Shown here: in pieces, positions 4,826-49,050 of the stretch | Layout of the letters: each line of letters opens with the position of its first letter | Numbering within the stretch: the first letter of the stretch is position 1 | DNA from: Azolla caroliniana | Taxonomy: Eukaryota > Plantae > Polypodiophyta | Assembly: GCA_043228905.1 (NCBI GenBank) | Contig: JBHGNT010000017.1 | Location: 806,001-870,000 of the forward strand | Reading direction: 5' to 3' | Length of the DNA: 64,000 nucleotides | Position numbers and translations under genes: made by a program | The notes under the pieces: generated by a model | What the model was told of the DNA's origin: nothing | The model's input: only the letters and a program-made list of their open reading frames with translations | The model's database searches: none

Positions 4826-4934
4826 AATATGTCGCGTTGTCGTAGTGTAATTCGCACACTACGTGAAAAATTACATTTTTGGTCTCTCCGGATAGGACAT
4901 GGAGTACCCGATGAGAACCGGAAGAAGGAACCGG

Positions 4935-5705
4935 TGTCACGAAGTTTCGCGAGTACGTTTAGATTCTAGTCGGGACCACGGGGGTCTTGGACTAGGGAGA
5001 AGAGGAGAAAGGTTAAGACAACGAATGGAAGATTAGCTCAAGAGGAGAAGAGAACGAATATGACATTATGATAGAACGAATATGACATTATGATACTCAA
5101 CAAGAAGTTCTATTAAGAAATGAATGATTACAATAATCCTGGCCGCATAGGCCGCACCCCACGATATATGAAACCGTAAGCGAATTAGTAGGAAGAAGAA
5201 GAATAAGAAAACCCTAAGCGAACCCTAACCCTAAAACGAAATGGGAAGAAGGAGAACCCTAGACTAAGTGGTATACCTCACTTACACTCAAAATTAGGCA
5301 ACCCCTTCAAATGTGACCCCTCACTCCCCTTTATAGATGTAAGGGGTGAGGCCCAATACAAGATGAGTGGTCAAATTCCCCCTTCTCCTTTTCAAAGGAG
5401 AATATTTGATCTCGATCTTGAGACCATCAGCCATAACTCTCACTCACCTAGCCGTCCTATTCAATGCCCATCACTCCTACACTCTTGTTCCTTATGTACC
5501 TCTCCCTAGTCTACAAGGGCACATCACATTTACTCTCCACGAATTCCGTGGTGCCCCTTTGGCACCTTAGATTATTACCCTTCCCTTACATTTTGGCTAT
5601 CTTATTCTTATTACACAAATATACAAGTGCATGTGCACATGTTGCACACCACTGATTTGCCCTTTCTATCCCGGTTTCACACCGTGGCCGGAAATCTTCA
5701 CGACA
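4935..5705 (-). mobile_element. solo LTR (TGTCG lineage), TSD CCGG
   Basis: TGTCACGA...TCACGACA with CCGG on both sides. Ends resemble the LTRs at 15939 and 32759-33278. Confidence 0.85.
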
Positions 5706-5927
5706 CCGGTAAGGACCGAAACCGGTAAGGAGACCCGGCAAGAGCTGGATGAAGAAGGCCGGTGAGAGTCGGTGAGAAACGGACGAAGAGATCGGTAAGG
5801 AGGTCTCGGTAAGAACCAGACAAAGAAAACTAGCAAGCACCGGATGAAGCAGAACCGGAAAGAGCCGGATGAAGAAGGCCGGTGAGAGTCTCTCACCGAT
5901 GAAGAGACATATTTGTAAATAGAAGAA

Positions 5928-5933
<6 letters not shown>

Positions 5934-5980
<47 letters not shown>
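5934..5980. repeat. (TA)n microsatellite
   Basis: Directly visible. Confidence 0.95.
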
Positions 5981-5985
<5 letters not shown>

Positions 5986-6023
5986 GCATAGGGCAAGATT
6001 TGAACCTTGCATCTCCATGTTAA

Positions 6024-6524
6024 TGTTGGGAGACAGGTCCCTCCGGATGGGAAGGAAGAAGAACAGTGCCGACGAACAAACAGGAAACGGTATGAGGAGT
6101 ACCCGGCTACCGAGAGCTGGATGATACAGTCCCGGTGAAGACCGGATGAGGAGTACCCGGCTACGGAGAGCCGGATGATACAGTCCCGGTGAAGACCGGA
6201 TGAGGAGTACCCGGCTACGGAGAGCCGGATGATACAGTCCCGGTGAAGACCGGATGAGGAGTACTCGGCTACGGAGAGCCGGATGATACAGGCTCGGTAT
6301 GAACCGGATGAGGAGTACCCGGCTACGGAGAGCCGGATGGTGCAGAACCGGTGAGAACCGGAGGAAGAGACATATTCGTAAATATGTTTCTGAGAGCCCA
6401 TCGAGGCTATATTTGTAAATAGCCGAAAAGTCATATTAGTATAAATATGACTTAGGGCAAACTTTTAGTTGTTGTTGTTATTCTTCCTTGTTGGTGCAAG
6501 AAGAAGAGTGAGCACGTAATAGTG

Positions 6525-6561
<37 letters not shown>

Positions 6562-6829
6562 GTCGTTGCCTCTGTTGTAACCGCCGCGTGTGGCGAAGAT
6601 CTGTGAGCACGAGGTCGTTGCCTCAGTGAACTCACTGTTGTACATTCTCACATAGTGACAGTTTGCAGCCTGTGGGCTGCCGTGGTTTTTCCCTCTTTGG
6701 GTTTTCCACGTAAACCTCCTGTGTATCTTCCTCTCCTTTGTGTCGTGTTTTAATTTCCCGTTTTTTGTGTATCATTCTACGCTCGGTTGTGGCCGAGCGT
6801 CGCGCATAAGGAACATCGGGTTCCTGTCA
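6024..6829 (+). mobile_element. copia solo LTR related to the Copia-1 LTR, TSD GTTAA
   Basis: TGTTGGGA...CCTGTCA with GTTAA on both sides. Shares TATAAATATGACTTAGGGCAAAC and CTCGGTTGTGGCCGAG with 3874-4483. Confidence 0.9.
6090..6345. repeat. 54-bp tandem repeat, about 5 copies, in the LTR U3
   Basis: Unit GATGAGGAGTACCCGGCTACGGAGAGCCGGATGATACAGTCCCGGTGAAGACCG; seen as an 18-aa repeat in ORF 5586-6434. Confidence 0.92.
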
Positions 6830-7442
6830 GTTAATACTGTTAAGCCTTATCATTATACTAGCGTATTATGAATTTTAAAGTTATACTAAACTTTATCCCA
6901 TGTAAAATTTCTAGACATGCATGGTACAAAAAGTTATTCATGCATAGACACTCGAGTAAAAAGAAAAGATGAGATAGAAAGCTAATCATGCACATGCAGT
7001 GTGCATGAAAACTAAAAATAGGAAAAGCACGACGCTTGCATGTAATAAACTTAGACTCTTCCAACACTATATAAGGAAGAGAGAAAGATGTATATAGGTT
7101 GTTGATTATTTTACAAGGGTTGATTAATATAATATAATTGTGGGATCCACGAGTTTGCTAACTATTTTTCTCTCTTAATTTGAGTACTCACTAATACACT
7201 ATACTCGTGGGATTCATGAGTTTTTCATATCTTTCTTTCTTACAATATATTTCATATTCTTAATTGCTTTAGAATTTTCTTTCCTCCTAGTCCAAAACCC
7301 TAGCGGTTCCCACCCGACTCACGCAACGATCCAGAGCCGTAAGGCACGACAGCGTGCGTATAGAATGAGGCGGGAATGCGGGGGTCTTGGACCAAGGAAT
7401 AACCGATCAGGAGTAGGAGCAAGAGAGACAACGGCCGTGCTT

Positions 7443-7444
<2 letters not shown>

Positions 7445-7496
<52 letters not shown>
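7445..7496. repeat. (CA)n microsatellite in the Gypsy-A LTR
   Basis: Directly visible. Confidence 0.95.
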
Positions 7497-7499
<3 letters not shown>

Positions 7500-8036
7500 T
7501 ACACAGAAACCGCAATCTATTGAAACAAGATAAGTGTGCGTAAGTATATAAATATATAAAAAAAGGGGGTTACAACCAACGGGCTGGTGAGCAACAAATC
7601 TCTCACGACTACGCACACGCACACACTCAGAAGAATGAGATGGAGACCCTGCCGGAAGCACACGGGCGTTCCGCAGAGCAGAGTCAGCCTCTCGAAAACC
7701 TGCACAGAGAAAGACAAAGGAGAAGAGCTCGGTCCCTAGTCCGACAACACTTTGTCCTCGACCAAAGCGATCCCCATTACGATTCCTCTCCCTCTCTTTT
7801 ATAGCCCAAGGAGGGAGGCCATCACAACCCGTTACATCATCTTTACTCTCTGTCCTTTCGGACAGAGATACGCTTGGATTTTCTACCTAACAAATGCGTG
7901 CTACCTAGGATATTCACATCAGCCGACTTGTACCTAGATATATACATTACAACAAAACTTGTGCCTACGTATAAGGGCCAGTTCATGCACATTATTCTCC
8001 GATTCCACCTAGGGACGGTTTTTTCCACGACAACGT

Positions 8037-15938: not shown

Positions 15939-18676
15939 TGTCGCGAAGTTTCGCGCACATGTGTTACTTGGGCGGGACCATGAGGGTCTTGGACTAGGGA
16001 GTACTCAAGGGATAAATAAATATTTATTTATTTATTTTAAATCTTATAAATATAAAGCACTCTTAGAACCCACTCTATGAATCCTCTCTAATAATCCTCT
16101 CTACGAATCCTCACTCTACGAACTCTCTCTACGAACCCACTCTACGAACTCTCTCTACGAACTCTCTCTACGAACTCTCTCTATGAATCCTCTCTATGAA
16201 CCCACTCTACGAATCCTCTCTTGGAACCCGCTCTACAAACTCTCTCTATGAACTCTCTCTAAGAATCCTCTCTATGAACCCACTGTACGAATCCTCTCTT
16301 CGAACCCACTCTACGAACTCTCTCTATGAACTCTCTCTACGAACCCACTCTACGAATCCTCTCTTTGAACCCGCTCTACGAACTCTCTCTACGAACCCAC
16401 TCTACGAATCCTCTCTTCGAACCCACTCTACGAACTCTCTTTACGAATCCTCTCTACGAAAGAAAGAGAGAAGAAAGAAACACAAATGATATCGGCCAAA
16501 GAAATAAATACGTGTTCGATTCCAACGCTAGAGGACCCTTTATAAAATAGGGTTAGATTACAATGGCAACTTCTAGTCAACCACAAGCTCGATGAAAACA
16601 TAAATACTAAATGCCCTTAGAGACAAGAGCAAATCCGAACACGACGAAGATGAACACACGAGCACCACCACAATGCTAACCCCAACGAACCACGACCACC
16701 CGAACGGCAAGCACACTGGCTTGCAATGACGAATGGGGCGAAGCAATGTCGATGCAACGAAGCTTGGGCTCATGAGCACTTCGAGTGCCGACATGAAGAA
16801 GAAGAGCACGTTGCGATGAGGGGATGAAGGGGTATGAGATGAAGAGAAGTGGTGGAGAAGAAGATGAAGAGTTGCGAAGGAAAAATGGCGATAGTCTCCT
16901 CCTCCCAAAACGTCCTCCCTAATGAGCCCCCCTCGACCTCCTTTTATAGGAAAAAAAGAAGGGGGGTCGCCAATTTTGTCTTCAATGCAAAAGGAATAAA
17001 ATTCCTTAAATCACGCTACATTGTAAGACTAGATTTGAACCGTGCACCTCTAGCTAGAAGTCAATGTGACTCTCCACTAGCCCATTAACTCTCTCTTATA
17101 TAATATGTAATTCTATCTCTATAAATTCGTAGCCTGTCTCCCCTCTCTCTTACTTTTTACACGAGCTTCTATACATCATTTCCACCATTTTCTTTTGCAT
17201 GTGCACAATTAATTGCCTTTGTGTGCACACGCATTGCACATGCACATTTTGACCCCCCCCCCCCCTTTCGCAAGTTATTCCCACTCTCCAGCACGCCACA
17301 TCACGACATCCACCCCCACCAAACCGCACATCCTCTGGTATGTGCCAAGAATGGCGGGCTGAGGGTGGTCAATAGTTCATTTCCTCTTCCTTATTGACCC
17401 CGTGGCTTGTTGTTTGCTCGCCTTTATCTTCGTCAAGGTCATCGAGGTTTGGCTCCCTATCGTGTCGCCTTTTGAAGATTTTGACCCACTTCCTTGCTAT
17501 TGGTACTGCTAGCTTAGTCCCATCAAGTTCAGCGAGGTGGTAGGTAGCATTATCGTTTGCACTCGTTACCACGTACGGCCCAAACCATCGCTTTGCGAAT
17601 TTTCGCATCGAACTATGTTGATTGTCGAGACTGCTATCATACACAATCACCCAGTCTCCTTCTTCGATCTTCTGAGGGCGTAGTCGGTGTGTCTTGTCGA
17701 ACCAGGCTTTGTTACTTAGCCTAGTCGCTTCTAACCTCCTCTTTGCCAACTCCAAGTCTTGGGGTCTTCTCTCAAGTTTCCTTATCCTCGTTGCTAGAAG
17801 CTCTTCTCGACTCATCTCATTTTCCCACGATATCACTACCCATGACACGATCGTGTCTTCAATGGGCATCACCGGCTTTTGTCCGTACATGAGTTCAGCT
17901 AGCATGAAACCTGTAACTGAGCTATGAGTTGTTCTGTCGGCCCACAAGACATAAGGTAGTAACTGAGGCCAATTCCCGACTCGCCCATCGCAAGCTCTTA
18001 CAATGGCTTTTACGATAGGCCCATGTCCGCGTTCTATCTTTCCATTAGCCTCCGGGTTATAAGCCTTCGTGAGAGAGAGCTTCACTCCAAGTCATTCAAA
18101 GAGCTCTGTAGCTTCGTGAGCGTTCAACTCTCCTCTGTCGGCCACTATCTTTCCCACACATCCGTACCGGCAGATGACATCCTCGAGTAATAATTTACAC
18201 ACCCCCGCTGTCGTTTTGTTTGCCAAGGCTTGCGCTTCTACTTGGTTTGTTAGGTCTTCTCTTGCTAGCACCAAGTATTTCATTTGGCCCACTCCCATCG
18301 GCATTGAAACCAAATTCACCATCCATTTGAAGTGTATGGTGAGTGGGTAGGTCAGGTGCAACTCATCCCTATGGCGTATGTTGGAGTGTATCTGGCAGCT
18401 TTCACACGTCCCCACGAAATGGGTGACATCCTTGTACATTCCCGGCCACCAATACTTCTCCTTTAACTTCTCTAATGTTGCCCATGTTCCTCTATGGTCC
18501 GCCCAAGGACTCTCGTGGAACTCAGACACCAATGTTGTTTTGTCCCCTTCCTTTATGACCACTCGTTGTGGCATCCCCGTCCTCCTCTTTGGGTGCCTCT
18601 AGAGGAATCCCCCTCGTAGGAAGTACTTGTACGCTTTCTTTCGGACTCTCTATGCTTCCTCCTTCGACCATGAACT
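15939..18676 (-). mobile_element. Gypsy-E (TGTCG lineage): integrase, PPT and 1.37-kb 3' LTR (15939-17308), truncated by Gypsy-C
   Basis: ORFs 18092-18574 and 17369-18085 are homologous to the integrase at 30300-31484 (CESC, VADRGEL, KIERGH, WFGPY). PPT at 17309-17329. Outer flank ACGA. Confidence 0.9.
16065..16459. repeat. short-unit minisatellite inside the Gypsy-E LTR
   Basis: Many variants of CTCTACGAA interleaved with CCCA, TCCT or CTCT. Confidence 0.9.
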
Positions 18677-19166
18677 TGTTACCCGGCCGACCAGAATGTG
18701 AAAAGGGATGGTTATTCGGAATATATTTAATTAAGTAGATTAGATTATAATTATGTAGTGAACAGACGGACCAGAATCGGTATGCCGATCCAGATCCGGA
18801 CCGATTCCGAACAGGTGCCGGTTGGCATCGTTTTGTACGCAGCACCGGTGACCTATATAAAGACCCGATTACAATGTATAAATCTAACGGAGAATTAATA
18901 TAAGCTTCTTGGTTTTACCTTCACGTATTGATCACCGTTCTGAATTAATTGTTATATCTTACGCGTGTATTAAGTGTATGCCTTATTGTTAAGTAGCTAA
19001 TTAAGTCGAAGTAATCGTTGTGTCTTAAATTATCTCGCCGTAACACCCTTTGGTGAAGTGTCTTCTGGAGACACCCTGTGTTAGGCCATTGTCCGACCCT
19101 AAGGATTAACAGAGTTTTTGGCGACCACGATTCCTGCACAATCGTAGCGAACAGTGGCGGGAATGG

Positions 19167-21128
19167 ATGATGCGACCAACGAACGACCCGGTTACGGAGC
19201 GAGCAAGGCGACTTGCTGAACGACTGAGGAAGCGAGAGGCTTTCCAACAAGCGGCAAAAGAAATCAGAGTGGATCGCTCATTTTCGAAAGTGATCCGGAG
19301 AGTGGCCAAGGAATCACTTCGGCTACCACAAAACGCCTACCTGGACAAAGGAAGCAGTCTACGCAGCCTTTGGGAAGCAGAATCCCTTCTTCAGGCATTG
19401 GTAGTGGGGGAAGGCGAATCCGAAGCATTTTCGGCATTTGAATCAGGTTTGACACCCCAGGCGGACCAGAGGATGAGGAGTCGGATACCTTTGCCGACAC
19501 CAGAACCCGAATCGACAAGGCTGGAAACTCCGGTACCAGAAGTTGACCACACTCCGGAACCAGAATTCGATGACGAGAGACCTCCGACACCGGAAGTCGA
19601 GGAGGAGAAGCCTCCAACACCACAAGAGGAGCAAGAAAGACCTCTGACGGCGACAGAAGACCGGGGAAAACCTCCATCACCACCAAAGGAGGAACGACCA
19701 CCGACACCACCATCCCGTGTACCGACACCGAACGACGATATGTCGTTCCAATATCCCAAATACCGGGATGATCCAGACGTGGAAGCCCACGTCCATGCGT
19801 TTCAGCAGACCTGGGAAGCGAACCATGTGACCCAACGCTTAAATACAGTCGAAGAGGAACGCTCAAAACGAGCAGAGTTCGGCATGACCTTGGAGGGACC
19901 GGCCGCCAGATGGCACCGAACACAGATTCCCAGCACCATCCCCACATTCGAAACATTAAAGACAAAATTCTTGCATTTCTTCCACAAGGAGATGGACCAA
20001 CGGGAAATGGTCGGCTTATTTTACAGTATCCCGCAGGAACCAACGGAGAACATCCAACAGTTTGTCATCCGGTTCCAGCGGATACACAGTCAACTCAACG
20101 GACACCACCGGAGGAAGAAACAAAGGCCATATTCTTAGCAGCATTCCGGGAACCCTTACGGACGGTGTGCACCGTCATCGATTTCCGCACTAGCAGCATA
20201 GATCAAGTTATTGATCGAGTTCGGGAAATGGAAAACTCGAGTTCATGGCTAACCATGGGCGCACTTCAGCGTACGCTACCGACAAAAGAGGATCTCCATT
20301 TCCAACAAGCAGTTCAATGTACGATATGCCTGAATGTCGGACATTCAGCGCTTGAATGCACCATGCGTGCCCAATGCTTGCTCTGCCACTCCAGAAGTCA
20401 CACAATGGAACGGTGTGAGTGTAACTTGTTAAATCGACAAGCACCACCGGTCCGGCAAATTGAGCCACAGAGCAACCAAGAGGAAGAAGAAGAATGTTGG
20501 TGGCGAGAGGAACGCTACCAACTGGCATAAGATGTCTGGTACAACGACCGAAGAGATGCGTATGACCGGTATGAAAGACAGGATATATATCGGGACTATA
20601 ATGGACGGTATGAAAGATATAATCGGGATCATTCCCCTAGTTACAACCACCGACGAGACGACTATGGCAAGGATGACGACCAGCCACGTCAAGGATACCG
20701 CAACAAAAAGAATTTCAATAAGAAATGTCATTTCAACAAAAAGGGGGGTCATCCACGAGAACCGGAAAAGGGCGCTCCAAGCAGCCAACCAGACCAAAAC
20801 CAAGCACTTGCCCCTGGTCCGCCACCAAGCACACACACCGAATCCAGCAACGCCCGGAAGCCGTACTGCTATTATTGCCGGCAAGAGGGCCACTATAGTA
20901 ATCAATGTCCGGCGAAGAGCTACGATAAGCGACCAACGGTGAACATGGTAGACGCGGAAGTCGCGGACCTAGAACAAGTCACTACAAGGTCAAAAGGCAA
21001 AGCCACGGAGTGGGAAACTCAAGAAGCCATCCGGAAGCAGGCAACCGAATGGGTGAAGAAGGCAAATGAACGAAATGCGGCCGAGCTCGAACAACAAAAG
21101 GAGAATGCCAAAGAGCTCACCGGCACGG
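19167..21128 (+). pseudogene. Gypsy-C gag (frameshifted)
   Basis: Pro/Glu-rich N-terminus, Gag core YPKYRDDPDVEAHVHAF, knuckles CTICLNVGHSALEC, CLLCHSRSHTMERC and CYYCRQEGHYSNQC. Confidence 0.85.
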
Positions 21129-32153: not shown

Positions 32154-32194
<41 letters not shown>

Positions 32195-32270: not shown

Positions 32271-32721
32271 ACGTCAAGCTCTTTTCCGGCGGTGGTTTGT
32301 AGCCGCCCACCGCCCTCTCCTTTCCGTCACTCGCGGGCCAAGTCGTTGCCGACCGCTCCCCATCATATTGCCGGCGTACCCACTTTGGTTTCGCGTATCC
32401 GTATGCCTCCATTAGAGCTCCCTCGAAGGAATCCCACGACTCGTGAGCTTCTTGAAGCTCCTTGACCTCTTTATGCATCGATACAGCCGCCACTCGACGA
32501 AAATACTCTAGCCGCATCGCTTCGTCCACGCCCCACTCCGTCATCTCGGCATCGTACGCTTCCAAGAACCTCGGGACATCGTCCCCATTGAATCGGTCGG
32601 CTCGATCGACCACCCTCACGACGTCTGGTTGAGCCGCATCTCGCCTCGCCTTTTTCCATCGCGCATCCATTACGATCTTTGCCATCATCTCCTCGAAGTC
32701 GAAATCTTCTTCCATCTCCAT
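32271..32721 (-). pseudogene. N-terminal Gag domain of Gypsy-B
   Basis: DRFNGDDVPRFLEAYDAEM...SWDSFEGALMEAYG aligns by eye with the Gypsy-H Gag (RFSGKDAMSYLASYLAEM...TWEEFEGRLLERYG). Confidence 0.8.
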
Positions 32722-33282
32722 GCTCCCTTGTCGCTCTTCACATCGGGTTCACCAAAGATGTCGCGTCATTACGCGCGTGCGTGTAGAAGGGGCGGGACCA
32801 CGGGGGTCTTGGACTAGGGAATGGAGGAGAAAGAATGAGACACAAAATGGAAGCTTAGCTCAAGAGGAGGTGAGAAAGAATAAGGCAATAACATAGAATA
32901 GACGGGGCAAGATGCTCAACAAGTTAGCTTAAGGAAACATAAACGCTTTACAATAGTGGCCGCCATGGCCGCACCAAACGACTATGAGAAAAACCCTAAA
33001 GGAAAACCCAAGAAGAAAACCCTAACCGAAACCCTAAAACCGAATAGGAAACCCTCGACCTAAGTAGTATGCCTCTCTCCCTCAAAATAGGCAACCCTTT
33101 CATAAGTGACCCCTCCCTTCCTTTTATAGCCCAAGGAGGGAGGGACCTTACAATGTGGGATAAAATTTCCCCTCTTATTTCTATACACCATTTCCTAGTA
33201 TACATGTGCACATGGTGCACACCACCGATTTGCCCATTCCACCCCGGTTTCCGCCTATGGACGAAAATCTTCACGACAACGG

Positions 33283-36200
33283 GGCAACCCGAAAACCCAA
33301 CATGGCAGGCGTTACAAGAATGCCAAATCACGCTGCCGTTAGGACGGCTATTGCAACTGGTACCACGGTTCACGAAAGGACTGAAGACCGGAAGGACGGC
33401 AGCTAACACACCACCGGCTCCGGCATTCTTTTCAAATCCGGAGGAAGGACCGGCAGTGGTGGACACATGCAGTCCAGCAATCACAGCCATCATGAAGGGA
33501 AAAGAGCTACCTGACACGATTATCGATGGAGGATCCGGCGTGAACGTGATCAGCCTCCGAACGTGTAACATGCTAGGAATCCAAGACTGGGAGCCGTGTC
33601 CGTTTTGGCTTCGGATGGCAGACACTAGCTCAGTACGGCCGACCGGATTAATACGCGATCTGGAAGTGACCATCGGGGGTCACACATTTCGCATTTCCGT
33701 AGTAGTTCTCCAGCTACAAGCTCAAGGAGCTTACCCACTATTGTTGGGACGACCCTAGTTTAAAACGGCACACATAAAGCAAAACTAGAGGAAGAACATA
33801 ATTACGTTCCGGCGAGGAAAAGCAAAAGTACGAGTACCGACTCAACCATGATCCGGTACCGGCAAGGAATCAATGCCGCTATATGCAGAATGTGTTAACA
33901 TGCTGGAAGGATTGGCGGACGAAGAGTTCAATCAATACTTACAGGAAAATCCGAAGATCGTACCTCTATTCGAGATTGATGTAGCCGAAGCAGTATCACC
34001 GTACATATTGCAACCGGATGGAACCGACGAGGAGCCGGATAAAGAGGCAATCCGGGAATTACGGCAAGCATAGGAGGCACTGGAAAAAGAAATGGCAGTA
34101 TCACAGTGCATGAAAGCTTCCCAACTAGAAGAGGTAAACCTAGGTACCACAGAGGACACAAGACTGGTGCACATCGCCAAGGAAATGACTTCGGAGAATG
34201 AAACGGCAATGATCACACTCCTAAAAGAATTTCGCGATGTGTTTGCCTGGTCCTACGAAGACATGCCGGGACTCGATCCTCAGTTATATCAACACCAAAT
34301 ACATCTGAGCAAAGACGCCAAACCGGTAGCGCAACGGCGTTACCAGATGAACCCGAATTACGCAGCAAAGGTCAGAGAAGAAATCGACAAGTTGTTGAGA
34401 GTGGGCTTCATCCGACCAGTAAAGAAAGCCACATGGTTCAGCCCGATAGTGGTAGTACCCAAAAAGAAGGGTAAGATCAGAGTGTGCGTCGACTACTAGA
34501 AATTGAATGCGGCTACGATAACAGACGCCTTCCCATTTCCATTCACGGATGGAGTCCTGGATGTGGTCGCCGGTCATAAGGTGTACAGTTTTCTGGATGG
34601 TTTCAGCGGCTATAATCAGATCCGGATGCACCCCGCCGACCAGGAGAAAACCGCTTTTGTCACCGAATGGGGAGTCTTTGTTGCCATAGTGATGATGTTT
34701 GGACTAAAAACGGCACCGGCAACCTTCCAACGAATCATCATGGAAATTTTCGGGGAATTCATTCCGGCATTCATGCAGGTGTTTTTAGATGACTTCGTTG
34801 TTTATAGCCAGGAAGGGGATCACCTTTAGCACCTCCGACTATATCTAGAAAAATGTAGGGTTTACCGACTAAGCCTGAACCCGGCAAAATGCATGTTCGG
34901 AGTAACCAGCGGAGCGTTACTGGGTCACATAGTCAGCAAGGATGGTATCGCAGTGGATCCGGACAAAGTAAAAGCAATCCTGGAGGCACCGGCACCAGCC
35001 ACGGCAAAGGCACTAAGCTGGTTCTTAGGACAAATTCAATGGCATAGCCGAATGCTCCGGTATCTGGCAGACTTGGCTACACCACTGCATGCCGCAGTAC
35101 ATCGGACACAGTTCCGATGGACGGACACAGAAGACCAAGCTTACCGGGCACTAAAAGTACTGTTGTCACAAGCACCGGTGGTGCAACCTCCGGATTGGTC
35201 CAAAGAGTTCCATGTGTTCGTTGACGCGTCCGACATTGCAATCGGGAGCGCACTGATGCAACTGACAGAACCAAAATGGTACCGGCCAGTCTATTATGCC
35301 AGCCGGAAGTTGTCCCAAGCAGAACGTAATTATTCCACGACGGAAAGGGAGGCTTTGGGAATGATCTACAGTGTCACCAAGTTTAGACACTATCTGTTGG
35401 GAAGGAAATTTTCCTTTCACGTAGATCATTCGGCGCTCCTCTATTTGGTGTCCAAAGCATCACTCACCGGTAAGCTGGCCTGGTGGCCCGGTGAACGTTA
35501 CTACTGCAAGAATTCAAGTTCGAGATATTCCACCGACCCGGCATACACCATGCGGTAGTGGATTATTTAAGCTAGCTAAATTCCGGCGAAACCGGTGACG
35601 GAGTCCCAAACGACTTTCCGGATGTAGAGTTGTTTAGAGTCACAGCAGAAATGGCTCACCAATAGTTCGGTCGCAGAGGAAGACAAGTGGCTCACCAATA
35701 TGCACCAATTTTTTAGCACCGGTTTACCTCCGGAGGAGATGAACAGAGACGAAAGGAAACGCTTAGCGGTTCAAAGCCGGCACTTCTATCTATTGCAGGA
35801 CACACTGTACCACAAAGGCGCAGATGGCATACGGCGGCGTGCAATGCGCAGTGACGAAAAGGAAGTAATATTGCGTGAGGCACACTGCGGCGTGCACGGA
35901 GAACATTATGCCGGAGACGCTACGGCAAGGAAAATATGGCAAAGTGGACTATGGTGGCCAACAACATTGAAAGATGCAGTCTGGTACGCTAAAGAATGCG
36001 ACCTATGTCAACGAATGGGGCAACCAATCGAACAAGCCAGAATGCCTCACCAGCCCGTGCTACCGTTAGAACCATTTCAGAAATGGGGGCTAGATTTTGT
36101 CGGTCCATTCAAACCACCGGCAATGAGAACCGGCAACCAGTACGTGATCGTCGCTAAGGATTACTGCACGAAATGGGTGGAAGCAAAAGCACTATGCGAC

Positions 36201-36890
36201 AACACTGCAACATCCACGGCAAAATTTTTATATGAATGCATTTGGTGCCGATATGGATGTCCGATAGAGCTCATAAGTGACCAAGGTGGGCACTTCTTAG
36301 GGCAAGTAGTGGAATGTTTGACGACATTTTATGCGGTGGTGCACAAATGAAGCACTCCCTATTATCCGCAAGCCAACGGATTAGCAAAGTCAACAAATAA
36401 AACACTACAGAATATCCTGCGGAAAATCGTCAATGAGAACCGAACGGATTGGGATACAAAGCTGCACAGTGCACTCTAGGCCTACCGAACGGCATATAAA
36501 ACAAGTATCCGCACAACACCATTCCGCTTAGCATTCAGATTAGAAGCAGTGATGCCGGTAGAGTTCCAGGTCCTGAGTTTACGAATACAAATTCGGGAAT
36601 GCCTGAATGAGAAGGAATCGGAAGCTATCCGGTTAAACGCGCTGTGTGAATTGGAAGAACACCGGCTAGCCAACATCATGCACCTAGAACTAGAGTAGCG
36701 GCGAAGGAAGGCGTTCGTGGATCGTCACCGAAAAGGGAACGAAAAGATGTTCGGCATCGGTAAGCCGGTACTCGTTTTCCAGACCCGGATGGGTAAAATG
36801 TCGGGGAAGCTACGGTTTCGGTGGACTGGACCATATTGGATTACGCGAGAGTTTAACGGTTCCTACCAATTAGGGACACTCGTTGGTAAG
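33283..36890 (+). pseudogene. Gypsy-C pol (PR-RT-RH-IN) with many stops
   Basis: IIDGGSGVNVI, FRDVFAWSYEDMPGLDP, FLDGFSGYNQI, FLDDF, FVDASDIAIG, ECDLCQ, WGLDFVGP, ISDQGGHF, WTGPY. Confidence 0.93.
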
Positions 36891-37373
36891 TCGGAAGCGT
36901 CGGCAAGCGGTCCAACGTCCGGCAAGGATTACAATCCGGATAGGGGTCCAGTGGGGCCGGTTGCTAATTAGCAAAACCATTTATCTTAAAAATATAAAAA
37001 AATATAAAAAAATCAAATCAAATCAAATCAAAGTAAATCATGCAAGGGCAAGGGGTGAACGGACACATGCAAAAGGAAGGAGTGAACAGGCATTTTGAAA
37101 AGGTACATAGTGGGCTATTAATAGGGTATTAAACCGCCGCCACATGGCACGTCATTCTATTTTAGTACATGACGTGCACATGCGCAGGTAATGAAAAAAA
37201 TAATAAGCGCCAACATGCAACAAGAAGACCCCCGCCACATAGAAACCCTCACATTTCGCGAACAGAGGAGCACAAACGCAGACAGGCGATTGAAGATCAG
37301 TTGACGCGAACCCACGCACACAAAGACTCCTCACACACAACCCTCACCAGCGCTCACCGACCTCGACGAAGCC

Positions 37374-39044
37374 ATGGACTGCCAAGCTCTCTCTGAAGTA
37401 GCCAAGAAATGGCTAAGGCAACACAACTTAGAGGGTTTCCTCACCATCATGGAGGCGCCACCGCACCGGGAGGCGGAGAAGATAGTCAAAGAAATCGACA
37501 CGGAGCTGATTACTGAGGAGGCCATCCATGTGTTGATTGGCCTTCCGGAAGGGGGAATCTTCACTATCAACAACCCTACCATGAAACAACTCCGAAAATA
37601 CTTTGGGGAATACTCTCTGGCAAGCAAGGCCTACCGGACACAGGGCGACGAAGATACTCTCTTTCAAGAGATTGCCCGGGTACTCCATGAATTTGGACAT
37701 GTATACCCTCGACCCCCCTGCATGCCCCAGAACCGGGCCGGCTTAATCATAGCCACATATGAAGGCGTGAAGGTGGATTGGCCGGTACTGATTGCAGATG
37801 GCCTCTATGCGACCATCAACTCTGTCAGAGGCAAAGAGGGTCGGAAGATATGGACGGCAGTGGCGCAATGGCTCACTCTATTGGTGCCACCTATCGAGAC
37901 CGTCAAGAGCATGAAGCGGGGAAGAACAACCAAAGGCACCCCGAAAACGGCCTCTAAACAGCAACAGTTGTCAGCATCTAAGGCAACCAAAAGGAAGGTG
38001 GCCGACACGGACCAGGCGGCAAAGGAGCGTGCCAACAGGAAGCGGCAGGCGGAAACGCAAGAGGAGCCACCAGTGCAGCCAATCAAGATCAGGCTTAGCC
38101 GACCAGTTCAACAAGCGCCGAAACCCTTGGCAGCGAAAATCAACATCGGGACTCAGGAGGAGGAAACGGAGGAGGAACCGTTAGAGCACCTCCGGCGGCG
38201 CCAAAAGGCAAGCACCTCTGAACATGTTGGGGAGCGTTCGGACCCAAAGAAGGATGGAACACCTGTACCCCGCCCTGAGCAGCCCGCACCAAGGATGGAA
38301 CCGGAACCGGTAAGGACAGAACCGGCCACAGAGCCCCCTACACAACAACCTCTACCGGCGGGTCAGGATACGGCAAGACCCGATATGCAAGCGTTGGAAG
38401 TACAGTTGCCGACCCCACCGGCAAGCCAAGAGCATTCAGAGGCGGAGCGGCCAATGGAGCCGCAACCAGAACGACAAAGTGGTCACCAACAAGAGCCAGA
38501 GTTGCAGCTCGACGCAACTGGACAAAACCGACCACTGGCCAACGACACCAACAGCCAACCCTCCAGGCAGACGCAACAACAGGGCACCGGTAGCCAATGG
38601 CTCCAGTGGATTGGAGAACAGATTTCCGGAGTGGTACACTACATAGAGGCGGAAGAGAAAGCGCAGATGGACCGGTTGCTCGTCACAACCAGAGAACTAG
38701 AGACAGCCCGGTCAAGGATCCGGAGCCTAGAACAAGACTTGGACCTGGCCACAGAAGAATTGGCCTTAACCGGACCACAGCTCCAAGCACCAGTGACTCC
38801 GATAAATGTACAGAATAAAGAAGCATCAGCAACTGTACATAGCAATAAGACCCTGGAGACGGAAACAGTCCCGGAGATAGTGGCGGCGCAAGCAAAAGAG
38901 CTTGCTGAATTAAGAGATGTACTGGCCGCACAGGAAGCATTACGCACCCGAGAGCGGGACTTGAAGAAAGCGGCAGAAGAAGAGCAACGAAAGACTGTTG
39001 AGAACCTCCGCCGGGCAGAAGAGAATCTGCGGAAAGGACATTAG
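37374..39044 (+). CDS. extra 3' ORF of Gypsy-C (556 aa, probably longer originally), function unknown
   Basis: Long sense ORF downstream of the integrase: globular-looking N-terminus, Pro/Gln/Glu linker, coiled-coil-like end that continues past the TAG to about 39217. Confidence 0.7.
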   Translation: MDCQALSEVAKKWLRQHNLEGFLTIMEAPPHREAEKIVKEIDTELITEEAIHVLIGLPEGGIFTINNPTMKQLRKYFGEYSLASKAYRTQGDEDTLFQEIARVLHEFGHVYPRPPCMPQNRAGLIIATYEGVKVDWPVLIADGLYATINSVRGKEGRKIWTAVAQWLTLLVPPIETVKSMKRGRTTKGTPKTASKQQQLSASKATKRKVADTDQAAKERANRKRQAETQEEPPVQPIKIRLSRPVQQAPKPLAAKINIGTQEEETEEEPLEHLRRRQKASTSEHVGERSDPKKDGTPVPRPEQPAPRMEPEPVRTEPATEPPTQQPLPAGQDTARPDMQALEVQLPTPPASQEHSEAERPMEPQPERQSGHQQEPELQLDATGQNRPLANDTNSQPSRQTQQQGTGSQWLQWIGEQISGVVHYIEAEEKAQMDRLLVTTRELETARSRIRSLEQDLDLATEELALTGPQLQAPVTPINVQNKEASATVHSNKTLETETVPEIVAAQAKELAELRDVLAAQEALRTRERDLKKAAEEEQRKTVENLRRAEENLRKGH

Positions 39045-39227
39045 GCCTACCAGCGGCTGAAGGAGGCGAAAGAGAAGGCGCTGCAAGAAAAGGAGAAGCT
39101 GAGATGGATGGCGGAAACAGAGATCGAAAGGCTGAAAGAAAAACTCCGTCAGCAAAAGGACCGGGAAGACCGCGCTCGCCGGCAACTCAACCAAAAGTTG
39201 AAGCAGAAAACCAATGATTTTGAGCAC

Positions 39228-39265
39228 CTCTCTGATTCCGCCTAGGGACGGTTTTCTCCATGACA
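39228..39265 (-). repeat. terminal fragment of a Gypsy-A/H-type LTR at a deletion junction
   Basis: GATTCCGCCTAGGGACGGTTTTCTCCATGACA matches 8001-8032 and is followed by ACGT. Confidence 0.75.
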
Positions 39266-42045: not shown

Positions 42046-42901
42046 TCTTGCCTTGCAATTACTCGATATAGTTTAGGGTTTAGAAACAAAATGTCTGTAC
42101 ATTTTAGGGTTTGGGCTTACCTGGAGTCTGTCCTAGATTTCTTTTTGCTCGAAATGTTGAGTTGTTGGTGGAGTAGGTGTGTGTTTGTGTCCTCAGTGCT
42201 CGGTGTTCATCTATCCTCTCGTGCTCTCGCGTGCTCTCCGGTCGCCCATGTGCAAGTGAGGAAAAAAAGGAATAATTTGTCGACCTATTTATAGGAGGAA
42301 AAGTTAAGTAAGGTTAGTTAAGCATAACTATAGGGTTAGTTTAGGGTACATGTGCACTAATGTTGGAGAACAAGATACCTCATGGTGGGATGTGTTCTTT
42401 AATTATCAAGAAGAAATTGTTAATAATTGTATCGTCGGTACATGGACCATGCAGATCCCCTTTACATTGTCGTGGAGGATTCCGGCCATAGGGGGAAAAG
42501 AGAGTCGGATGAGCGTGAACGGGGGTGTGAACGGATTCACACAAATTTAAACCGTTTTGATGTACCAATATGTGTAAATAGTAAGGTGTTAGTCTAAGTA
42601 TTGATAGGTACTACATAGACTATCTTAGTAGGTACTTTATGATCACACATATAGAGAGGAATAAGGGATTGATGGGAGAAAATCAAGGGGGAAATCTAAG
42701 AGAAAATTGACTATCTTAACAGCTTGATGGGAAGGTTTCTCTCTCTCCTGGAGCAATAAAAAGGAGGGAGAGAAGACTTAGAGATCCATACACGATTTTA
42801 GAGGACGAAATGTTGCGGGACCGAGCTTGGCAAGTTTTTGTCTTCCTAATCTCTATTTCTAACGTCGTGCTGTGAGGCTTCCATTTGCGTTGGCAACCCA
42901 T

Positions 42902-43765
42902 TGTCGCGAGTTTTCATGTGGACATGTCGGAACAGGGCGGAGCCACTGGGGTCTTGAACCAAGGATTCGGTAAGCGAAGAGGATTATCCGGATCGGCCTC
43001 CAGGTAACCTCATGGGAGAGTGGTTCAGACAGGTGAACTCACGGGCTCAGCACGCATTATCGGTTCCGGACCTGCGCCGAATAGGGAACAATGAGCTCAC
43101 GGGCTCTCACACCAATCATACACTCAAACGGAGATAGAACCGAGATGAGATCACAAGCTCCAGACGCGACAAACACACGACAAACAAAAACGGTGTGGAG
43201 TTACCCGAACATGAACAGAGACTCGGCAAAAACTAACAATTAATTAGAGGAAACAAAAGATTACAACCGGATGCAGTTGGCAACAGAGCTATGAGCTCCC
43301 GACACACACACACTAGCAAGCCTCTAATCAGGAGCACACGGCTACCAGGTGAAACATAATGCTCACAACACAACGACCGAAATAGCGAATGGGAAAACAG
43401 AAATCTACAGAGCTCGGTCCAGCACCACTTCATTCTCCAAATTGTGGATCCCTTTCTCAGTCTTCTCTCCCTCCTTTTATAGCTCAAGGAGGAAGAGACC
43501 GTTACATCAGGCTGTTATGACAAGCGCTTTGAATCCCTGATTCTCTCCTCAATCTCCTTCAATCAATCACCTTTATTTCTCTATTCGTGTGACAATAAAG
43601 TACCTATCAAATCCCTTCTACCATGTATTCCTCAACACTCAACTAATACTAGGTTATTTATTGTACATGTTTGTACATAAAGACAGTCTTGTGTGCATCC
43701 GTGCACACCCCCGTTCCCGCACTCTCCGGCCCCTTTTCTCCTTGTAGCCGGAATTCCCCACGACA
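42902..43765 (-). mobile_element. solo LTR (TGTCG lineage), inverted relative to its host LTR
   Basis: TGTCGCGA...CCACGACA. Flanks CCAT and CTGT are each one deamination from CCGT. Confidence 0.8.
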
Positions 43766-43801
43766 CTGTGTGCTCCGGATCGGAGGCTCGCTAGTGTCTA
43801 T

Positions 43802-44351
43802 TGTTATCCGTGGGACAAAAGGATACAATGTGAAACCAATCTAAGGATATGAGTAGGTAAAGTAGGTGAAAAAATGACAACCGAGAATTAGGAAGGTAAC
43901 GGAATACATGTCGCCGAGAATGAAGGCCGAGAAGAAAGGATTGACTAAAGTGCTCTAAGCAGAAAGGGAAGCTATAAAACGAGGAGCAGAATCAACAAGA
44001 AGGGAGGACAATGAGGGAGAGTGATCACCCTACTCTAGAGCAGATTATTGTTATCTATCTAACTGTATGAGAATAGAACTCCGGTCGTGAGCCGTGTAAC
44101 CTTTGCATCTGAATCTATTAATATATCTATCTTTATGGGTCTAATATGTTCAAGCGTCTATCTCTGTTAATCGGATTAAATTTCTATCTTAGTTTCAAAG
44201 TACAATTTATTGGGCCGGTTGTGGCCGACTAATTTTTTAAATCAATTACTTGTGCAATCCCGGGTTCCTTGTCCACCACTACGTACCATGACCCCCTTGA
44301 TCCGATTACCCTAGAAGTGATCCAAGGTGTTATCTCCAAGTAGAGACAACA
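43802..44351 (+). mobile_element. solo LTR, TSD TCTAT
   Basis: TGTTATC...GACAACA with TCTAT on both sides, TATAAAA and a CCGGTTGTGGCCGA motif shared with the copia LTRs. Confidence 0.8.
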
Positions 44352-45499
44352 TCTATGTGTGTGTGAGTGTCGAGAGTGCGAAGCTCTATTGCCAGCTGAG
44401 TTTGGTTGTATTTCTCCTATTACTGATCAATAAATACCTCTTTGTTTCTAGTTTTCTGTCTTTCTTGTCTCTACCCATGACCTTGTCCCGTCCTCTTTCC
44501 TTGCTTGTGCATACTCGAGAGTGTGACCCATGAGTTCATTGTTGCTTTCCAGCAACAGGTGTGGAACTGTATATGTCCCTTAGCCCATGTGCTTAGTTCC
44601 CGACATCCAGAGGCTTGTTCGGATCAAGGACACGTTACCCGGCAAAGTCATCCAGAAACCGGTCCAGTGAAGTTATTTGGAAGCTTATCTAGACAACTTT
44701 CTTCCCTCACCGGCTCCTTGGTCCGAGGCCCCGATGGTCCCGCTTCGTTCCTACAATTTTGGATTAGTAAGGATTTGGACGTGGTGATGCATGAAAACCA
44801 AAATCAAATGCAGTCTATAAAGGTGCATTGGTACAACACTAGAAGCAAAAATGCATTTATAAGCAAGTATGTGTTAGAGATGATGGAATGTCCAAGGTCA
44901 AGAGGAAAAGAAACATTTGTAACACATCATCCCTTGACATTAGTGAGGTGGATATTATTGTTTACGAATTTATGCTAACAAAAATTGGACATTTAGGGAA
45001 GTCAACAATAGACATAATAAAGCAAAAATTACCGATTCTACAAGATCTTCAACACATAATTTAGAACCATCTGGTTTCAAATGAAGACAATGCTTTAATA
45101 GGTACATTTGAAGATGATGAGGAACAACCAACCTTGTATATTAGTTATAGTAGTGATTCTAGATCATCAAAGGAGTGATTTATGTAAACCCTAAACTCTT
45201 GAATGTAATTTTGGTATCAAATTGTAATCAAATTCAATTTGTAATACTCAAATGACATAAAAGTTACGTTTTGAAATCTGTCGCTTTGTATGAAGATTGT
45301 TTATTTAAAAAAACATTACTTGTTTTTTTGAGAAAATACACATTGTAACTTTTAGATAAGAGCCTAAATTTTATGACTTTCCAACTTTATGAAATTGTGC
45401 ATTTTTAAGCTTTTCCAACTAATTATTGAGAACATGTGATTCTGGTATCATTGTGTTTTGTGAAATGGGTATATAAACCCCAAAATCAAACGGAATATT

Positions 45500-48400
45500 C
45501 CTTATCCTCCCATTTTTGTGTGATTCTTCCACTTGTGAACACAAACCTGTTCACAATTATGTATTGAACCCTCAGGTGTTGGTAGGAGACATCTTTTCCT
45601 ATCCACACCCTCTATGGGACATCACCTTTCAATGGCACTAAGGGAGACCTATTGATTAGATAAACAGTTGTATACATCACCTCAGCTCAGTACGATTAGC
45701 ATCTCCATAATCGTCCGATTCATCCTCTTTGCAAGCCCATTCAACTCAGGGGTCTTCGACACTGTGTATTCGATTTGAATACCTTGGGCATTGCAGTACG
45801 CCTCGAACTGCCCTCTGTATTCAACACCATTGTTGGTTCAGATAGCCTTCAACTTCCAAATCTACTCTCTTTTGGCCATTGCCTGGAACTCCTTGAAGAA
45901 CGACAGTACTTAGTCGTTCGACTTTAGTACCAAACCCACAACTTTCGATTATAGTCATCTATGAACGTCACAAAATACTCCCCACCTCAATGTGATGCGG
46001 CATCTACATAGCACACATCGGTGTGTACTAGTTCTAGTGTAGGTTCTCTTCTCCTTGGTGGTCTCATGTGGAATGCAACTCTGTTTTGGTTTCCGACTAA
46101 GCAGTCAACACACTTCTCCAAGTGTACTCTTTTCACTTCTGGGAGAAGCTTTTGATCCGCTAGGATGTGCATTCCCTCTTCACTCATGTGGCCAAGCCTC
46201 TTATGCCACAATTCTCCACTCGAGTCGGCTACCACATTTGCTTTCGACTTGCACAGTCTAGCTTGCATCATGTACAATGTGCCTTGTTTCTGTGCTTAGG
46301 CCACAATGAGATTTCCCCAACAGAACTTCTACTTGCCACTTCGAAAGCTATCACTATAGCCTTTGTCTCCATCCTTCCAGTTGATATCATATTCAGCCTG
46401 AAATCAGGCACGTGTCAGACATCCTTCAAAGTGAGCCGACAACCGGTCAACATTATCATACATACATTTCCGACGCCGACTATCTTTACATAGCCATGAT
46501 CATCGGTTGTGTAAATCAAGAAACACTCTCTTGACGGAGTTATATGGAAAGATGCACCTGAGTCGATTACCCAGGTACACTCTTCACTTGCAAGATTTGT
46601 GCTTGCCTAGTCACAAATGAACAAGATCTCCTCTTCGGTTGTGGCTATGGTAGATGTGCCCTTCTCCTCATAAATCTCACTGGGTTCAATATCCTTTGAG
46701 CCACCTTTTTCCTTCTTAAGGTGTTGACAATCCTTCTGGAAGTGTCTAGGTTTTCCATAGTAGAAGCATGTAAGCTTACCTCTGAACTTGGATCTGGCAT
46801 GGGATTTGTCCCTTCTTTGTGGACTTCTCTTTTTGTTCCTTCCTCTATCGTGTTGAGCCATATTTGACTCCGATTCGGATTGGACAACCTTGTCCTTCGT
46901 TATTGTCTCCTCGTTCAAGAGACTTGACTTCACCACTTGTGAAGACAGGTCTTCTTCTTGACACGAGATGTTGAGGGTCACCATCGGATTCTCCTAGTTG
47001 TCCAACAGTGTGCCAGCAACAAGGCCTACATAGCATCATCAAGGGGAAACTTGGTTGTTGCAAGTTGGTTCATATACCCCATGAATGTGTTGATGTGTTC
47101 CACTCTGCTCTCCCCATCCTTGTACTTCAGTTGTATGATCTTCCTCCTCAAAGATGTCTTGTTCAGGGCATTCTTCCTCTCGCAGAGCCCTAACAACTTC
47201 TACCACATCTCGTAGGCATTTGTGTCGTTCACCACATGCTGAAGGACACTAACGGTTATGTACTGTCTGATGGTGGCCACTGCCTTCCTATTGAGGAGTT
47301 TCCATTCAAACGCTAATAATACCCTCGTGGATATTTGTTCTCTATCGATGGGCTAATATAAATCTTTGAAGATGAGAAGATCTTCCATCTTGATCTTCCA
47401 GTCTACGTTGTCGTGAAGATTTTTGGCAACGGTGTGAAAATTGCATGGAATGTACAAAATTGAGTGTGGTTCTTCACACACAATATGAAACAATAATAAT
47501 GAAGATATTATTTTATATTAGTTTAATATCTTGGTACAAAAAGATGGATGTCTTCAAGAGCTTCTGAATGCATTTTATTACATGTGAAACGGACAACTTA
47601 GTGTCAAGTTATGTGAGTGTGAAGTTTGAGAAGAAGAAGAGGTAAACAAAATTGTGAGATATCCCACATAGATAGGACACTATCTAGATTCAAGAGTATA
47701 TAAGTAGAGCCATATCTTTTTATATTTTGTCTATGTGTTAGGAGCCCAAAAAGGTTTGGTTGTATAACTTGGACAAATGGATGCGGCCAAGTTTTTCAAA
47801 ATGGTTTTGGAGAACCGGAACCGGACCAGACGGACGGCGACGAATCCGGAACCGGGACCGGGATAGACGCACGGAGATGGAACTGGGAATGGAACGGCCA
47901 GATTGCGACGAGACCGAGACCGGGACTAAACGGCAATGGAACCAGGCCGGCCAGACGGACGAACGGCACCGGAACCGGACTAGATCGGATCATCGGACCA
48001 GATGGACCAGATCACCGAGTCAGATGCGGACTGGAAAGATAGATCGAACGATTTCGGTGTGAAACGAACAAAATCACATGCATTTCATGCATTGTATGCA
48101 TGTCTTGTAGCCTCACATGCATCATATGCATGGGGGCGTCTATAAAAGAATAGATGAAAAATATCAAAGGGAGCGAGGTATTAATCAAGAATTTAATAAG
48201 AAGAAAAATTCGTTATCCAATTGATGATCTATCTTGTTCCTCAAATCTAAAGTCAAGGGTTCAATCTTAATCTCTCTCTACATTTCCATCTCTCTCAATC
48301 TAAAGTCAAGCGTTCTATCGTATCTCAATCTCTCTCTCTTTCAATCTATCTTAAATACTTTCTCGCTAAAGCTAGTGCAAACTTCGAATCCTTTCGGTCA

Positions 48401-49050
48401 AGAACCCTGGCGGTTCCGCCTCACAAGCCGCACATAGTGACGGATTTTTCACAACAACGTAGTTGTGTGAGTTCAAGACCATCATTCCTACAAATCCACT
48501 CACACTTCCTTCCATCTTTGCACTTGTCACTCTAATACCAGTTTGATGAGATGGGATCTTAAATCTTTCCTTAAGATACGCAGAAATATGCAGCATGGAT
48601 ACAAAAAACAGGAAATGGACAAGATATACACAATACATAGTTTTACGTGGAAAACAATAAACAGGAAAACTACGAGAGAACAGATCTTCACTATTATAGT
48701 GGATATACCGGAGAAAGTTAAAATAGATTACAACACTCTCTCTTACAGAGTGTACCAGCCACACCGGGCTCTTGGTATCTACTGTTACACACACAGTTAT
48801 GGTGCCGCTCACCTCTTACATGTCTCTCTTCTTCTCTCTCACTCTAACCTACACACACTTAATGTTTTGCCCTAGACGTATTTAGACTTCAGCAGAATAT
48901 GTGTTATTTACAAATATGCCTATTCTTATTATTATCTAATAATAACAGTAACAATCGTTAATCAACTGCCTAATCGACTAGTCATTTCGACTAGCCGACT
49001 CCTGTGTCGACTGTCATGTCGGCCCGATTAGTTGGCCTTGTCGTCGACCA
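45500..49050 (-). mobile_element. degenerate Ty1/copia related to Copia-1 (5' LTR, PBS, gag-PR-IN; 3' half missing)
   Basis: PBS TGGTATTAGA at 48531-48540. Fragments SVLQHVVNDTNAYEMW, WVIDSGASFH, GELWHKRLGHMSE, LELVHTDVC. Ends are approximate. Confidence 0.85.
47409..48456 (+). mobile_element. solo LTR (TGTCG lineage) in the copia gag, TSD ACGT
   Basis: TGTCGTGAAGAT...TTTTCACAACA with ACGT on both sides. Homologous to 24898-25864. Confidence 0.9.

What the first reader, a model, noticed from the sequence alone, without database searches (positions are those of the whole stretch)
4834..48460. A Ty3/gypsy lineage that integrates at CpG-centred 4-bp targets (NCGN)
Seen: nearly every insertion with TGTC...GACA termini has a 4-bp flank centred on CG. 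Paired flanks: 4838-7351 GCGT/GCGT, 4935-5705 CCGG/CCGG, 21129-33278 ACGG/ACGG, 24186-32270 GCGT/ACGT, 24898-25864 ACGT/ACGT, 47409-48456 ACGT/ACGT, 42902-43765 CCAT/CTGT (both derivable from CCGT). Single flanks: ACGT (8033, 39266), ACGA (15935), ACAT (42464). The other solo LTRs here have 5-bp TSDs without CG (GTTAA, TCTAT). Established: most plant LTR elements make 5-bp TSDs with weak sequence preference. Inference: this chromodomain-less integrase reads CpG or methyl-CpG directly, steering it into other GC-rich transposons and away from AT-rich host DNA. I cannot tell whether this is already described.
Basis: partly seen in the sequence, partly recalled or inferred. Interest (0 to 1): 0.82.

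Follow-up and report, generated by a model that had tools for sequence, protein, structure and literature searches.

The report
CpG-targeting Phygy-like retrotransposon lineage
These plant jumping genes almost always insert at a four-base site centred on CG (most often ACGT, almost never TCGA), a real pattern already published for the moss Phygy retrotransposons to which they likely belong; whether the enzyme senses DNA methylation remains untested.

Summary
All 11 flanks read as stated. 9 of 11 independent window insertions keep a central CG and 2 fit CpG decay (P about 1.5e-11). Outside the window, 54 of 57 distinct target flanks of the same LTR lineage are NCGN and 3 are decay forms, against 3.6% background. 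The motif narrows to A-CG-T favoured and T-CG-A avoided.

It is already described. Neumann et al. 2019 list the Phygy lineage with 4-bp NCGN TSDs (100%), tRNA-Trp priming and no extra domain. The window lineage matches these traits, but no Phygy reference sequence was available for a tree.

The steering claim is not supported. Flanks average 42% GC and are not CpG-rich. No methyl-reader domain is present. Methyl-CpG reading is untested.

Smaller additions: the host is likely a fern, and the RT sits in a clade with fungal elements, apart from Tat-like gypsies. The scan noted NCGN targets before in another, likely fungal, genome (e1-10582392; not checked by me).

The parts
24186..32270 (+). Element A, the most complete NCGN-lineage element; TSD GCGT/ACGT; 7114 bp without its nested solo LTR
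24186..24878 (+). 5' LTR of A (TGTCGTG...CGCGACA), 95% identical to the 3' LTR
31562..32270 (+). 3' LTR of A, preceded by a polypurine tract at about 31538-31561
24879..24897 (+). PBS of A, interrupted at its own ACGT by solo LTR sB1; tRNA-Trp identity is recalled, not from a call
   Evidence: intact PBS in L006, L007, L020, L027, L054
25890..28070 (+). gag(-protease) ORF of A, with DUF4100
28275..31484 (+). RT-RH-IN of A with two in-frame stops; H2C2, DDE and GPY/F SH3-like CTD; no chromodomain
24898..25864 (+). Solo LTR sB1, TSD ACGT/ACGT, inside the PBS of A
21129..33278 (-). Element D: 5' LTR 32759-33278 with PBS, truncated 3' LTR 21129-21384; TSD ACGG/ACGG; sits in the gag-pol of host gypsy C, and A sits inside D
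4830..8032 (-). 5' LTR of element F (flank ACGT at 8033-8036); PBS directly below 4830; gag remnant 4483-4814
4838..7351 (+). Solo LTR I, TSD GCGT/GCGT, inserted 8 bp from the end of the LTR of F
4935..5705 (-). Solo LTR B, TSD CCGG/CCGG, inside I
15939..18649 (-). Truncated element E: 3' LTR 15939-17308 (flank ACGA), PPT, and an integrase remnant 69% identical in DNA to that of A
39229..39265 (-). 37-bp LTR-start remnant J, flank ACGT at 39266-39269
42468..44755 (+). LTR H (flank ACAT, a CpG-decay form), split by G; its 3' terminus is not preserved
42902..43765 (-). Solo LTR G, flanks CCAT/CTGT, both derivable from CCGT by CpG deamination (inferred)
47409..48456 (+). Solo LTR sB2, TSD ACGT/ACGT, inside a copia element (40% GC, 2% CG locally)
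19001..39228 (+). Host gypsy element C (Tat-related RT); not part of the NCGN lineage; target of D; ends approximate
6024..6829 (.). Contrast: copia-type solo LTR with 5-bp TSD GTTAA
43802..44351 (.). Contrast: solo LTR with 5-bp TSD TCTAT

Best explanation
This is a chromodomain-less Ty3/gypsy lineage, likely the published Phygy lineage or its close kin in a probable fern, that makes 4-bp target duplications centred on CG with ACGT favoured, and its integrase likely selects that site by itself, probably without needing methylation. Shown: 4-bp stagger, CG centre, outer-base bias (A favoured before CG, T avoided), PFV/Ty3-like integrase with no extra reader domain. Inferred by analogy with foamy virus: the intasome bends the target and unstacks the central pyrimidine-purine step, and base contacts narrow YR to CG. 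The candidate contacts are the conserved CTD beta1-beta2 loop and the Glu at the position of PFV Ala188. Nesting in young elements would follow from where CpG survives: 8.9% in element A against 1.4% in the AT-rich tail.
For: Window 9 of 11 and outside loci 54 of 57 CG-centred, the other 3 being decay forms. The non-LTR pattern hits give 4 of 39. Contigs of four runs under four organism codes, laid on the sB2 junction, stop after matching ACGT in 47/22/28/58 cases and CGT in 21/22/13/29, against 39/20/29/35 with no flank match, whose consensus is PPT-like (72 rows not shown). The symmetrised outer base is A 68, G 20, C 19, T 1 of 108, against 23% A and 34% T in background CG sites (P 1e-23). 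The Phygy traits match. Pfam finds no chromo, MBD, SRA or CXXC domain in 8 of 8 scanned proteins, 6 of them of this plant lineage. The integrase model (pLDDT 85) matches PFV and Ty3 integrases and ends in a low-confidence tail. In PFV, central YR unstacking and base contacts by Ala188 and Arg329 are established (PMC4005685 passages). D-R-G-E-L and the CTD loop are nearly fixed in the plant rows and variable in the distant rows.
Against: No Phygy reference protein could be placed in the tree. Element A (7114 bp) is below the published Phygy range of 7656-9968 bp, and Phygy was defined from one moss. One 3' flank (L079, TCCA) is neither CG nor a decay form, and two solo-like loci have unmatched CG-centred flanks (L068 ACGT/ACGG, L075 ACGC/CCGT). 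The window's E flank (ACGA) and L083 show that the T-CG or CG-A outer base is avoided but not barred. In PFV the Ala188 contact lies outside the duplication, so it cannot by itself explain the CG centre. The 57 outside flanks come from one numbered series of assemblies, so few hosts are sampled. Nothing here separates CpG from methyl-CpG.
Confidence: 0.62

Rival explanations
1. The integrase prefers methylated CpG, through direct contact or through the changed bendability of the methylated step, and so is sent to silenced repeats without a chromodomain.
For: At least 9 of 11 window insertions lie in other retroelements, and 29 of 57 outside flanks have some repeat similarity, 20 of them within 150 bp (a lower bound, since the library was small). 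13 of 16 transitions between the LTRs of A are in CG or CHG context, so these elements are likely methylated.
Against: No reader domain. No local CpG enrichment around the sites. CG availability alone explains the spread in the window. TSD decay shows methylation after insertion, not before.
Confidence: 0.18
2. The NCGN preference arose separately. This is a fungal-related gypsy lineage distinct from Phygy that converged on the same target, TSD length and primer.
For: The RT lies in a long-branch clade (support 100) with a Colletotrichum pol protein, away from Tat-like gypsies. Atlas look-alike clusters are mostly Basidiomycota and Oomycota. No Physcomitrium protein was among the named hits listed. 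CG-centred 4-bp TSDs also occur in Ginger1.
Against: Four traits match Phygy together (NCGN, 4 bp, Trp-type PBS, no extra domain). Most Phygy copies have broken ORFs and may be missing from protein sets. Phygy is reported in a liverwort by REXdb HMMs, and this lineage is abundant in Riccia.
Confidence: 0.15
3. The pattern is a selection artefact: the reader picked CG flanks in CpG-rich nested repeats.
Against: A flank-blind set of 57 outside junctions gives 54 CG against 3.6% background (P 1.5e-74). Read contigs agree.
Confidence: 0.01

Closest known systems
Phygy, non-chromovirus Ty3/gypsy lineage of REXdb (Neumann et al. 2019, PMC6317226; I saw passages, sections 8 and 9, and supplements 5 and 6)
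   Same: 4-bp TSD with NCGN preference (100% of 186 elements), tRNA-Trp PBS (81%), no chromodomain or aRH, coding sequence filling most of the interior
   Different: Described from the moss Physcomitrella patens; this host is likely a fern. Element A is 7.1 kb against 7.7-10.0 kb. The outer-base bias (ACGT favoured, TCGA avoided) is not in the text I read. Tree placement against Phygy was not testable.
Ginger1 DNA transposons (Bao et al. 2010, PMC2836005; passages)
   Same: Gypsy-like integrase with GPY/F motif, TGT termini, 4-bp CG-centred TSD
   Different: Cut-and-paste element with TIRs and no RT; prefers CCGG (75%) and CCGT/ACGG (24%) where this lineage prefers ACGT; found in animals.
Fungal non-chromovirus Gypsy clades Ylt1 and SN_1006 (Novikova et al. 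2010, PMC2864245; section 5)
   Same: Chromodomain-less fungal gypsies; the nearest non-plant relatives of this RT are fungal or oomycete
   Different: No named Ylt1 or SN_1006 sequence was in my tree, so the label is only a lead; their TSDs were not obtained.
Prototype foamy virus intasome (Serrao et al. 2014, PMC4005685; passages)
   Same: Integrase fold (top Foldseek match) and a central YR step at the target
   Different: The passages describe a preference for flexible YR steps in general; here only CG is used.

Membership tests
Phygy (REXdb) | RT-RH-INT clusters with Phygy reference elements (the primary definition) | not testable with these tools
   The REXdb FASTA and the per-element table are too large to read; no named Physcomitrium protein among the listed hits
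Phygy (REXdb) | 4-bp TSD | tested here: met
   4 bp fits best in 7 of 7 pairs; reading frames of host C on either side of D agree only with 4 bp
Phygy (REXdb) | NCGN target preference | tested here: met
   9 of 11 in the window and 54 of 57 outside, the rest decay forms
Phygy (REXdb) | PBS complementary to tRNA-Trp | tested here: inconclusive
   One conserved PBS in A, D, F and six loci; its assignment to plant tRNA-Trp is recalled and was not checked against a tRNA set
Phygy (REXdb) | No chromodomain, no aRH, order GAG-PROT-RT-RH-INT | tested here: met
Phygy (REXdb) | Typical size 7656-9968 bp (the authors call size of little weight for classification) | tested here: inconclusive
   The one near-complete copy is 7114 bp, slightly below the range
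Chromovirus (Tcn1 and others) | C-terminal chromodomain; mostly 5-bp TSD | tested here: not met
OTA Tat (TatI also has 4-bp TSD and Trp PBS) | Additional archaeal-type RNase H; RT grouping with Tat | tested here: not met
   PF13456 is absent from the precomputed domains of the relatives (one weak E 0.047 hit on the ordinary RH); RT is far from Tat
Selgy | tRNA-Ala PBS, about 5 kb, variable 4-bp TSD | tested here: not met
   Size 7.1 kb and a fixed CG centre
Ginger1 DNA transposon | TIRs of 40-270 bp, no RT | tested here: not met
   Direct LTRs, PBS, PPT and RT are present
Ylt1 / SN_1006 fungal clades | RT clusters with named Ylt1 or SN_1006 elements | not testable with these tools
   Only unnamed proteins and one Colletotrichum pol were available

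The most novel reading that the evidence does not exclude
CpG targeting is an old trait of one cross-kingdom gypsy clade (fungi, oomycetes, liverworts, mosses, ferns) whose integrase reads methyl-CpG with its catalytic core and C-terminal loop. That would be a chromodomain-free route into silenced DNA, and Phygy would be the plant branch of that clade.
Probability: 0.12. Interest if true: 0.72.

Novelty: new member of a known kind. Interest (0 to 1): 0.24.

Why it matters
The headline motif is published, so the finding mainly extends it. It adds a likely fern host, a sharper motif, a fungal-related RT placement and candidate integrase residues. A near-absolute CG requirement is rare among plant LTR integrases. 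It gives a clean test system for how an intasome reads its central base step and whether 5-methylcytosine matters, a question the papers I saw do not address.

Tried and rejected
No whole genome is held, so no genome-wide logo was possible.

IMG/VR scans for fungal relatives with flanks led nowhere. One search found none. One search found two distant contigs (L122, L123) with terminal repeats and no flanking DNA. One search found none.

Cluster look-ups gave no organism names. The careful IQ-TREE run and the one-clade test did not finish; the quick tree and FastTree are used. No tRNA gene lies in the window to check the PBS against. No host gene was identified among ORFs of 48.5-64 kb, judged by eye only.

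GingerRoot is not a match (6-bp TSD). The Drosophila gypsy motifs in PMC3276498 are ATAT or TATA types. A recalled CG-rich target for Drosophila ZAM was not confirmed in that paper.

Paper searches: 'NCGN' with 'retrotransposon' gave 2 papers, only Neumann 2019 being relevant. 'Phygy' gave 18. CG-dinucleotide insertion preference gave 3, none relevant by listing. Ylt1 target site gave 2, not read. Ylt1 with moss gave 2. Subscription papers are not covered, and the two Neumann supplements I could not read bear on membership.

Rejected: steering to GC-rich DNA; host element C as the source of the NCGN sites.
Full report
Observation. For the seven paired elements, 4 bp is the best duplication length. 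The reading frames of the host element on either side of insertion D agree with a 4-bp duplication and not with 3 or 5 bp. HMM searches with LTR-start and LTR-end profiles listed the termini in the window. Apart from those facing a PBS or PPT and one segmental duplicate (15235), they give 11 independent events. Nine keep CG in at least one copy. Two (G, H) fit CpG deamination, which is inferred. With local CG rates of 1.6-10.4%, 0.52 are expected (P 1.5e-11). The contrast solo LTRs with 5-bp TSDs are confirmed.

Anatomy. The window is a nest of retroelements. The NCGN termini (TGTCG...CGACA, shared U5, one PBS, one PPT) belong to a lineage whose pol is seen in element A (24186-32270) and remnant E. 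A second gypsy, C (about 19001-39228), and two copia elements are targets. Several insertions use CG sites in the lineage's own signals: I sits 8 bp from an LTR end, sB1 in a PBS, and locus L115 next to a PPT.

Independent test. No genome was held, so I scanned metagenome contigs for the LTR start. The scan stopped after 11 of 64 parts with 121 loci. Using downstream sequence only, 77 were LTR starts (53 by BLAST, the rest by a flank-blind PWM). Of these, 20 were preceded by the PPT and dropped, leaving 57 distinct target flanks: 54 NCGN and 3 decay forms (CCAT, ACAT, GTGT). Background CG was 3.6% (P 1.5e-74). The strict set gave 33 of 36 plus 3 decay forms. The remaining 44 loci gave 4 CG among 39 distinct flanks, one of which (L119) is a true LTR start too short to score.

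Of 11 clearly called 3' target flanks, 9 were CG, 1 a decay form and 1 neither (L079). I left out L002 and L047 (contig ends) and L038 (end mis-called). Among solo-like loci, L011 and L065 had matching TSDs, L016 a decayed match, and L068 and L075 unmatched CG flanks. All LTR loci come from one numbered series of assemblies, so these are many insertions from few hosts. Contigs from four runs under four organism codes laid on the sB2 junction mostly continue into ACGT or CGT before diverging, and one search showed the same in one run at the junction of A.

Refined motif. The first base was A 38, G 11, C 8, T 0 and the fourth T 34, G 12, C 10, A 1. Symmetrised, A is 68 and T 1 of 108, against 23% and 34% in background CG sites. 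TA, CA and TG are each about twice as common as CG in the flanks, so a general YR preference does not explain the data.

Steering. Flank GC is 42%, and CG density does not rise towards the site. 29 of 57 flanks show some repeat similarity, 20 within 150 bp; short-read assembly and my small library both bias this downward. The window's AT-rich tail holds 219 of 2846 CGs, so 0 of 11 insertions there has P 0.41. Nesting is therefore explained by CG supply: 8.9% in A against 1.4% in the tail.

Relatives. The nearest named proteins are from Adiantum nelumboides (67% over two thirds of the query) and Riccia. In the quick tree the closest named row is the Adiantum protein, with support 85. A fern host is likely; an earlier scan note says the same (e1-10618240). 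The RT lies in a long-branch clade (FastTree 1.0, 129 rows; SH-aLRT 100, 40 rows) that includes a Colletotrichum pol, while C groups with Tat-type elements. Atlas look-alikes are mostly basidiomycete and oomycete clusters. The Ylt1/SN_1006 label is a lead only.

Mechanism. Pfam finds H2C2, rve and a weak SH3_Tf2-1, and no chromo or methyl-binding domain. The model of relative P0375 (74-row alignment, pLDDT 85) matches PFV and Ty3 integrases, with a disordered tail. In PFV the two central base pairs are unstacked, YR is favoured, and Ala188 and Arg329 (CTD beta1-beta2 loop) contact bases (PMC4005685 passages). Here the position aligned with Ala188 is Glu, nearly fixed in the plant rows, and the beta1-beta2 loop (about residues 379-395 of P0375) is strongly conserved in plant rows and variable in distant rows. 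I infer target choice by the intasome itself: bending at the central step plus base contacts that narrow it to CG. Residue roles are untested. Methyl dependence is neither shown nor excluded.

Known literature. Neumann et al. 2019 write that Phygy elements have an insertion preference for the NCGN motif (passage). Their supplement lists 186 elements with 4-bp NCGN TSDs (100%), tRNA-Trp PBS (81%), 7656-9968 bp and no extra domain. Jedlicka et al. 2019 confirm mostly 4-bp TSDs for Phygy and its nesting into Tcn1 (PMC6911290 passages). Phygy is reported in a liverwort (PMC12885004 passages). Ginger1 has CCGG/CCGT TSDs. I also saw passages of PMC7466625, PMC9002660, PMC6839031 and PMC3276498, which added nothing on CG targeting. 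My ten searches found no paper on the mechanism of Phygy targeting or on NCGN in ferns; the library lacks most subscription journals.

Verdict. The feature is real and strongly supported, but its headline is known. It is best filed as a likely Phygy-type lineage in a new host group, with membership untested by tree. The open part is how the integrase reads CG and whether methylation or fungal ancestry is involved. Interest 0.24.

Noticed in passing
window 19001-39228: Host gypsy C groups with Tat-type RTs but its close relative P0250 shows no aRH. It has a short candidate 5' LTR ending at 19045, a different PBS, and a long extra ORF (37305-39044) with no Pfam match. It may be the PPT-less, dual-tRNA lineage noted elsewhere in this genome; its 3' end is lost here.
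   Followed up: partly
window 21385-24185 and 32275-32758: The interior of element D has only a short gag-like start, GC-rich ORFs and three 231-bp repeats, with no pol. It is probably a non-autonomous derivative with 97% identical LTR parts.
   Followed up: no
window 16034-16527: An array of 13-bp units inside the 3' LTR of element E. The segment 15046-15757 is a rearranged copy of 15750-16206 and 19001-19247.
   Followed up: partly
window 24898-25864 and 47409-48456: These solo LTRs end in short inverted repeats (TGTCGTGAAGAT...ATCTTCACGACA), resembling the termini of Ginger DNA transposons.
   Followed up: no
window 41240-41310: Two closely spaced CGCGACA LTR-end-like motifs, the first followed by TTTGGTGAG, beside a copia-like LTR stretch at 41542-41599. 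Not resolved.
   Followed up: no
L122:1-8465 and L123:1-4419: IMG/VR contigs with distant integrases of this clade (27-28% identity) and identical 114-123 bp terminal repeats, probably retrotransposons assembled as circles.
   Followed up: partly
window 39266-40791; L034:328-1000: The acidic ORF and integrase remnant next to J match the interior of another NCGN-lineage element (81%), suggesting a subfamily with extra 3' sequence.
   Followed up: partly
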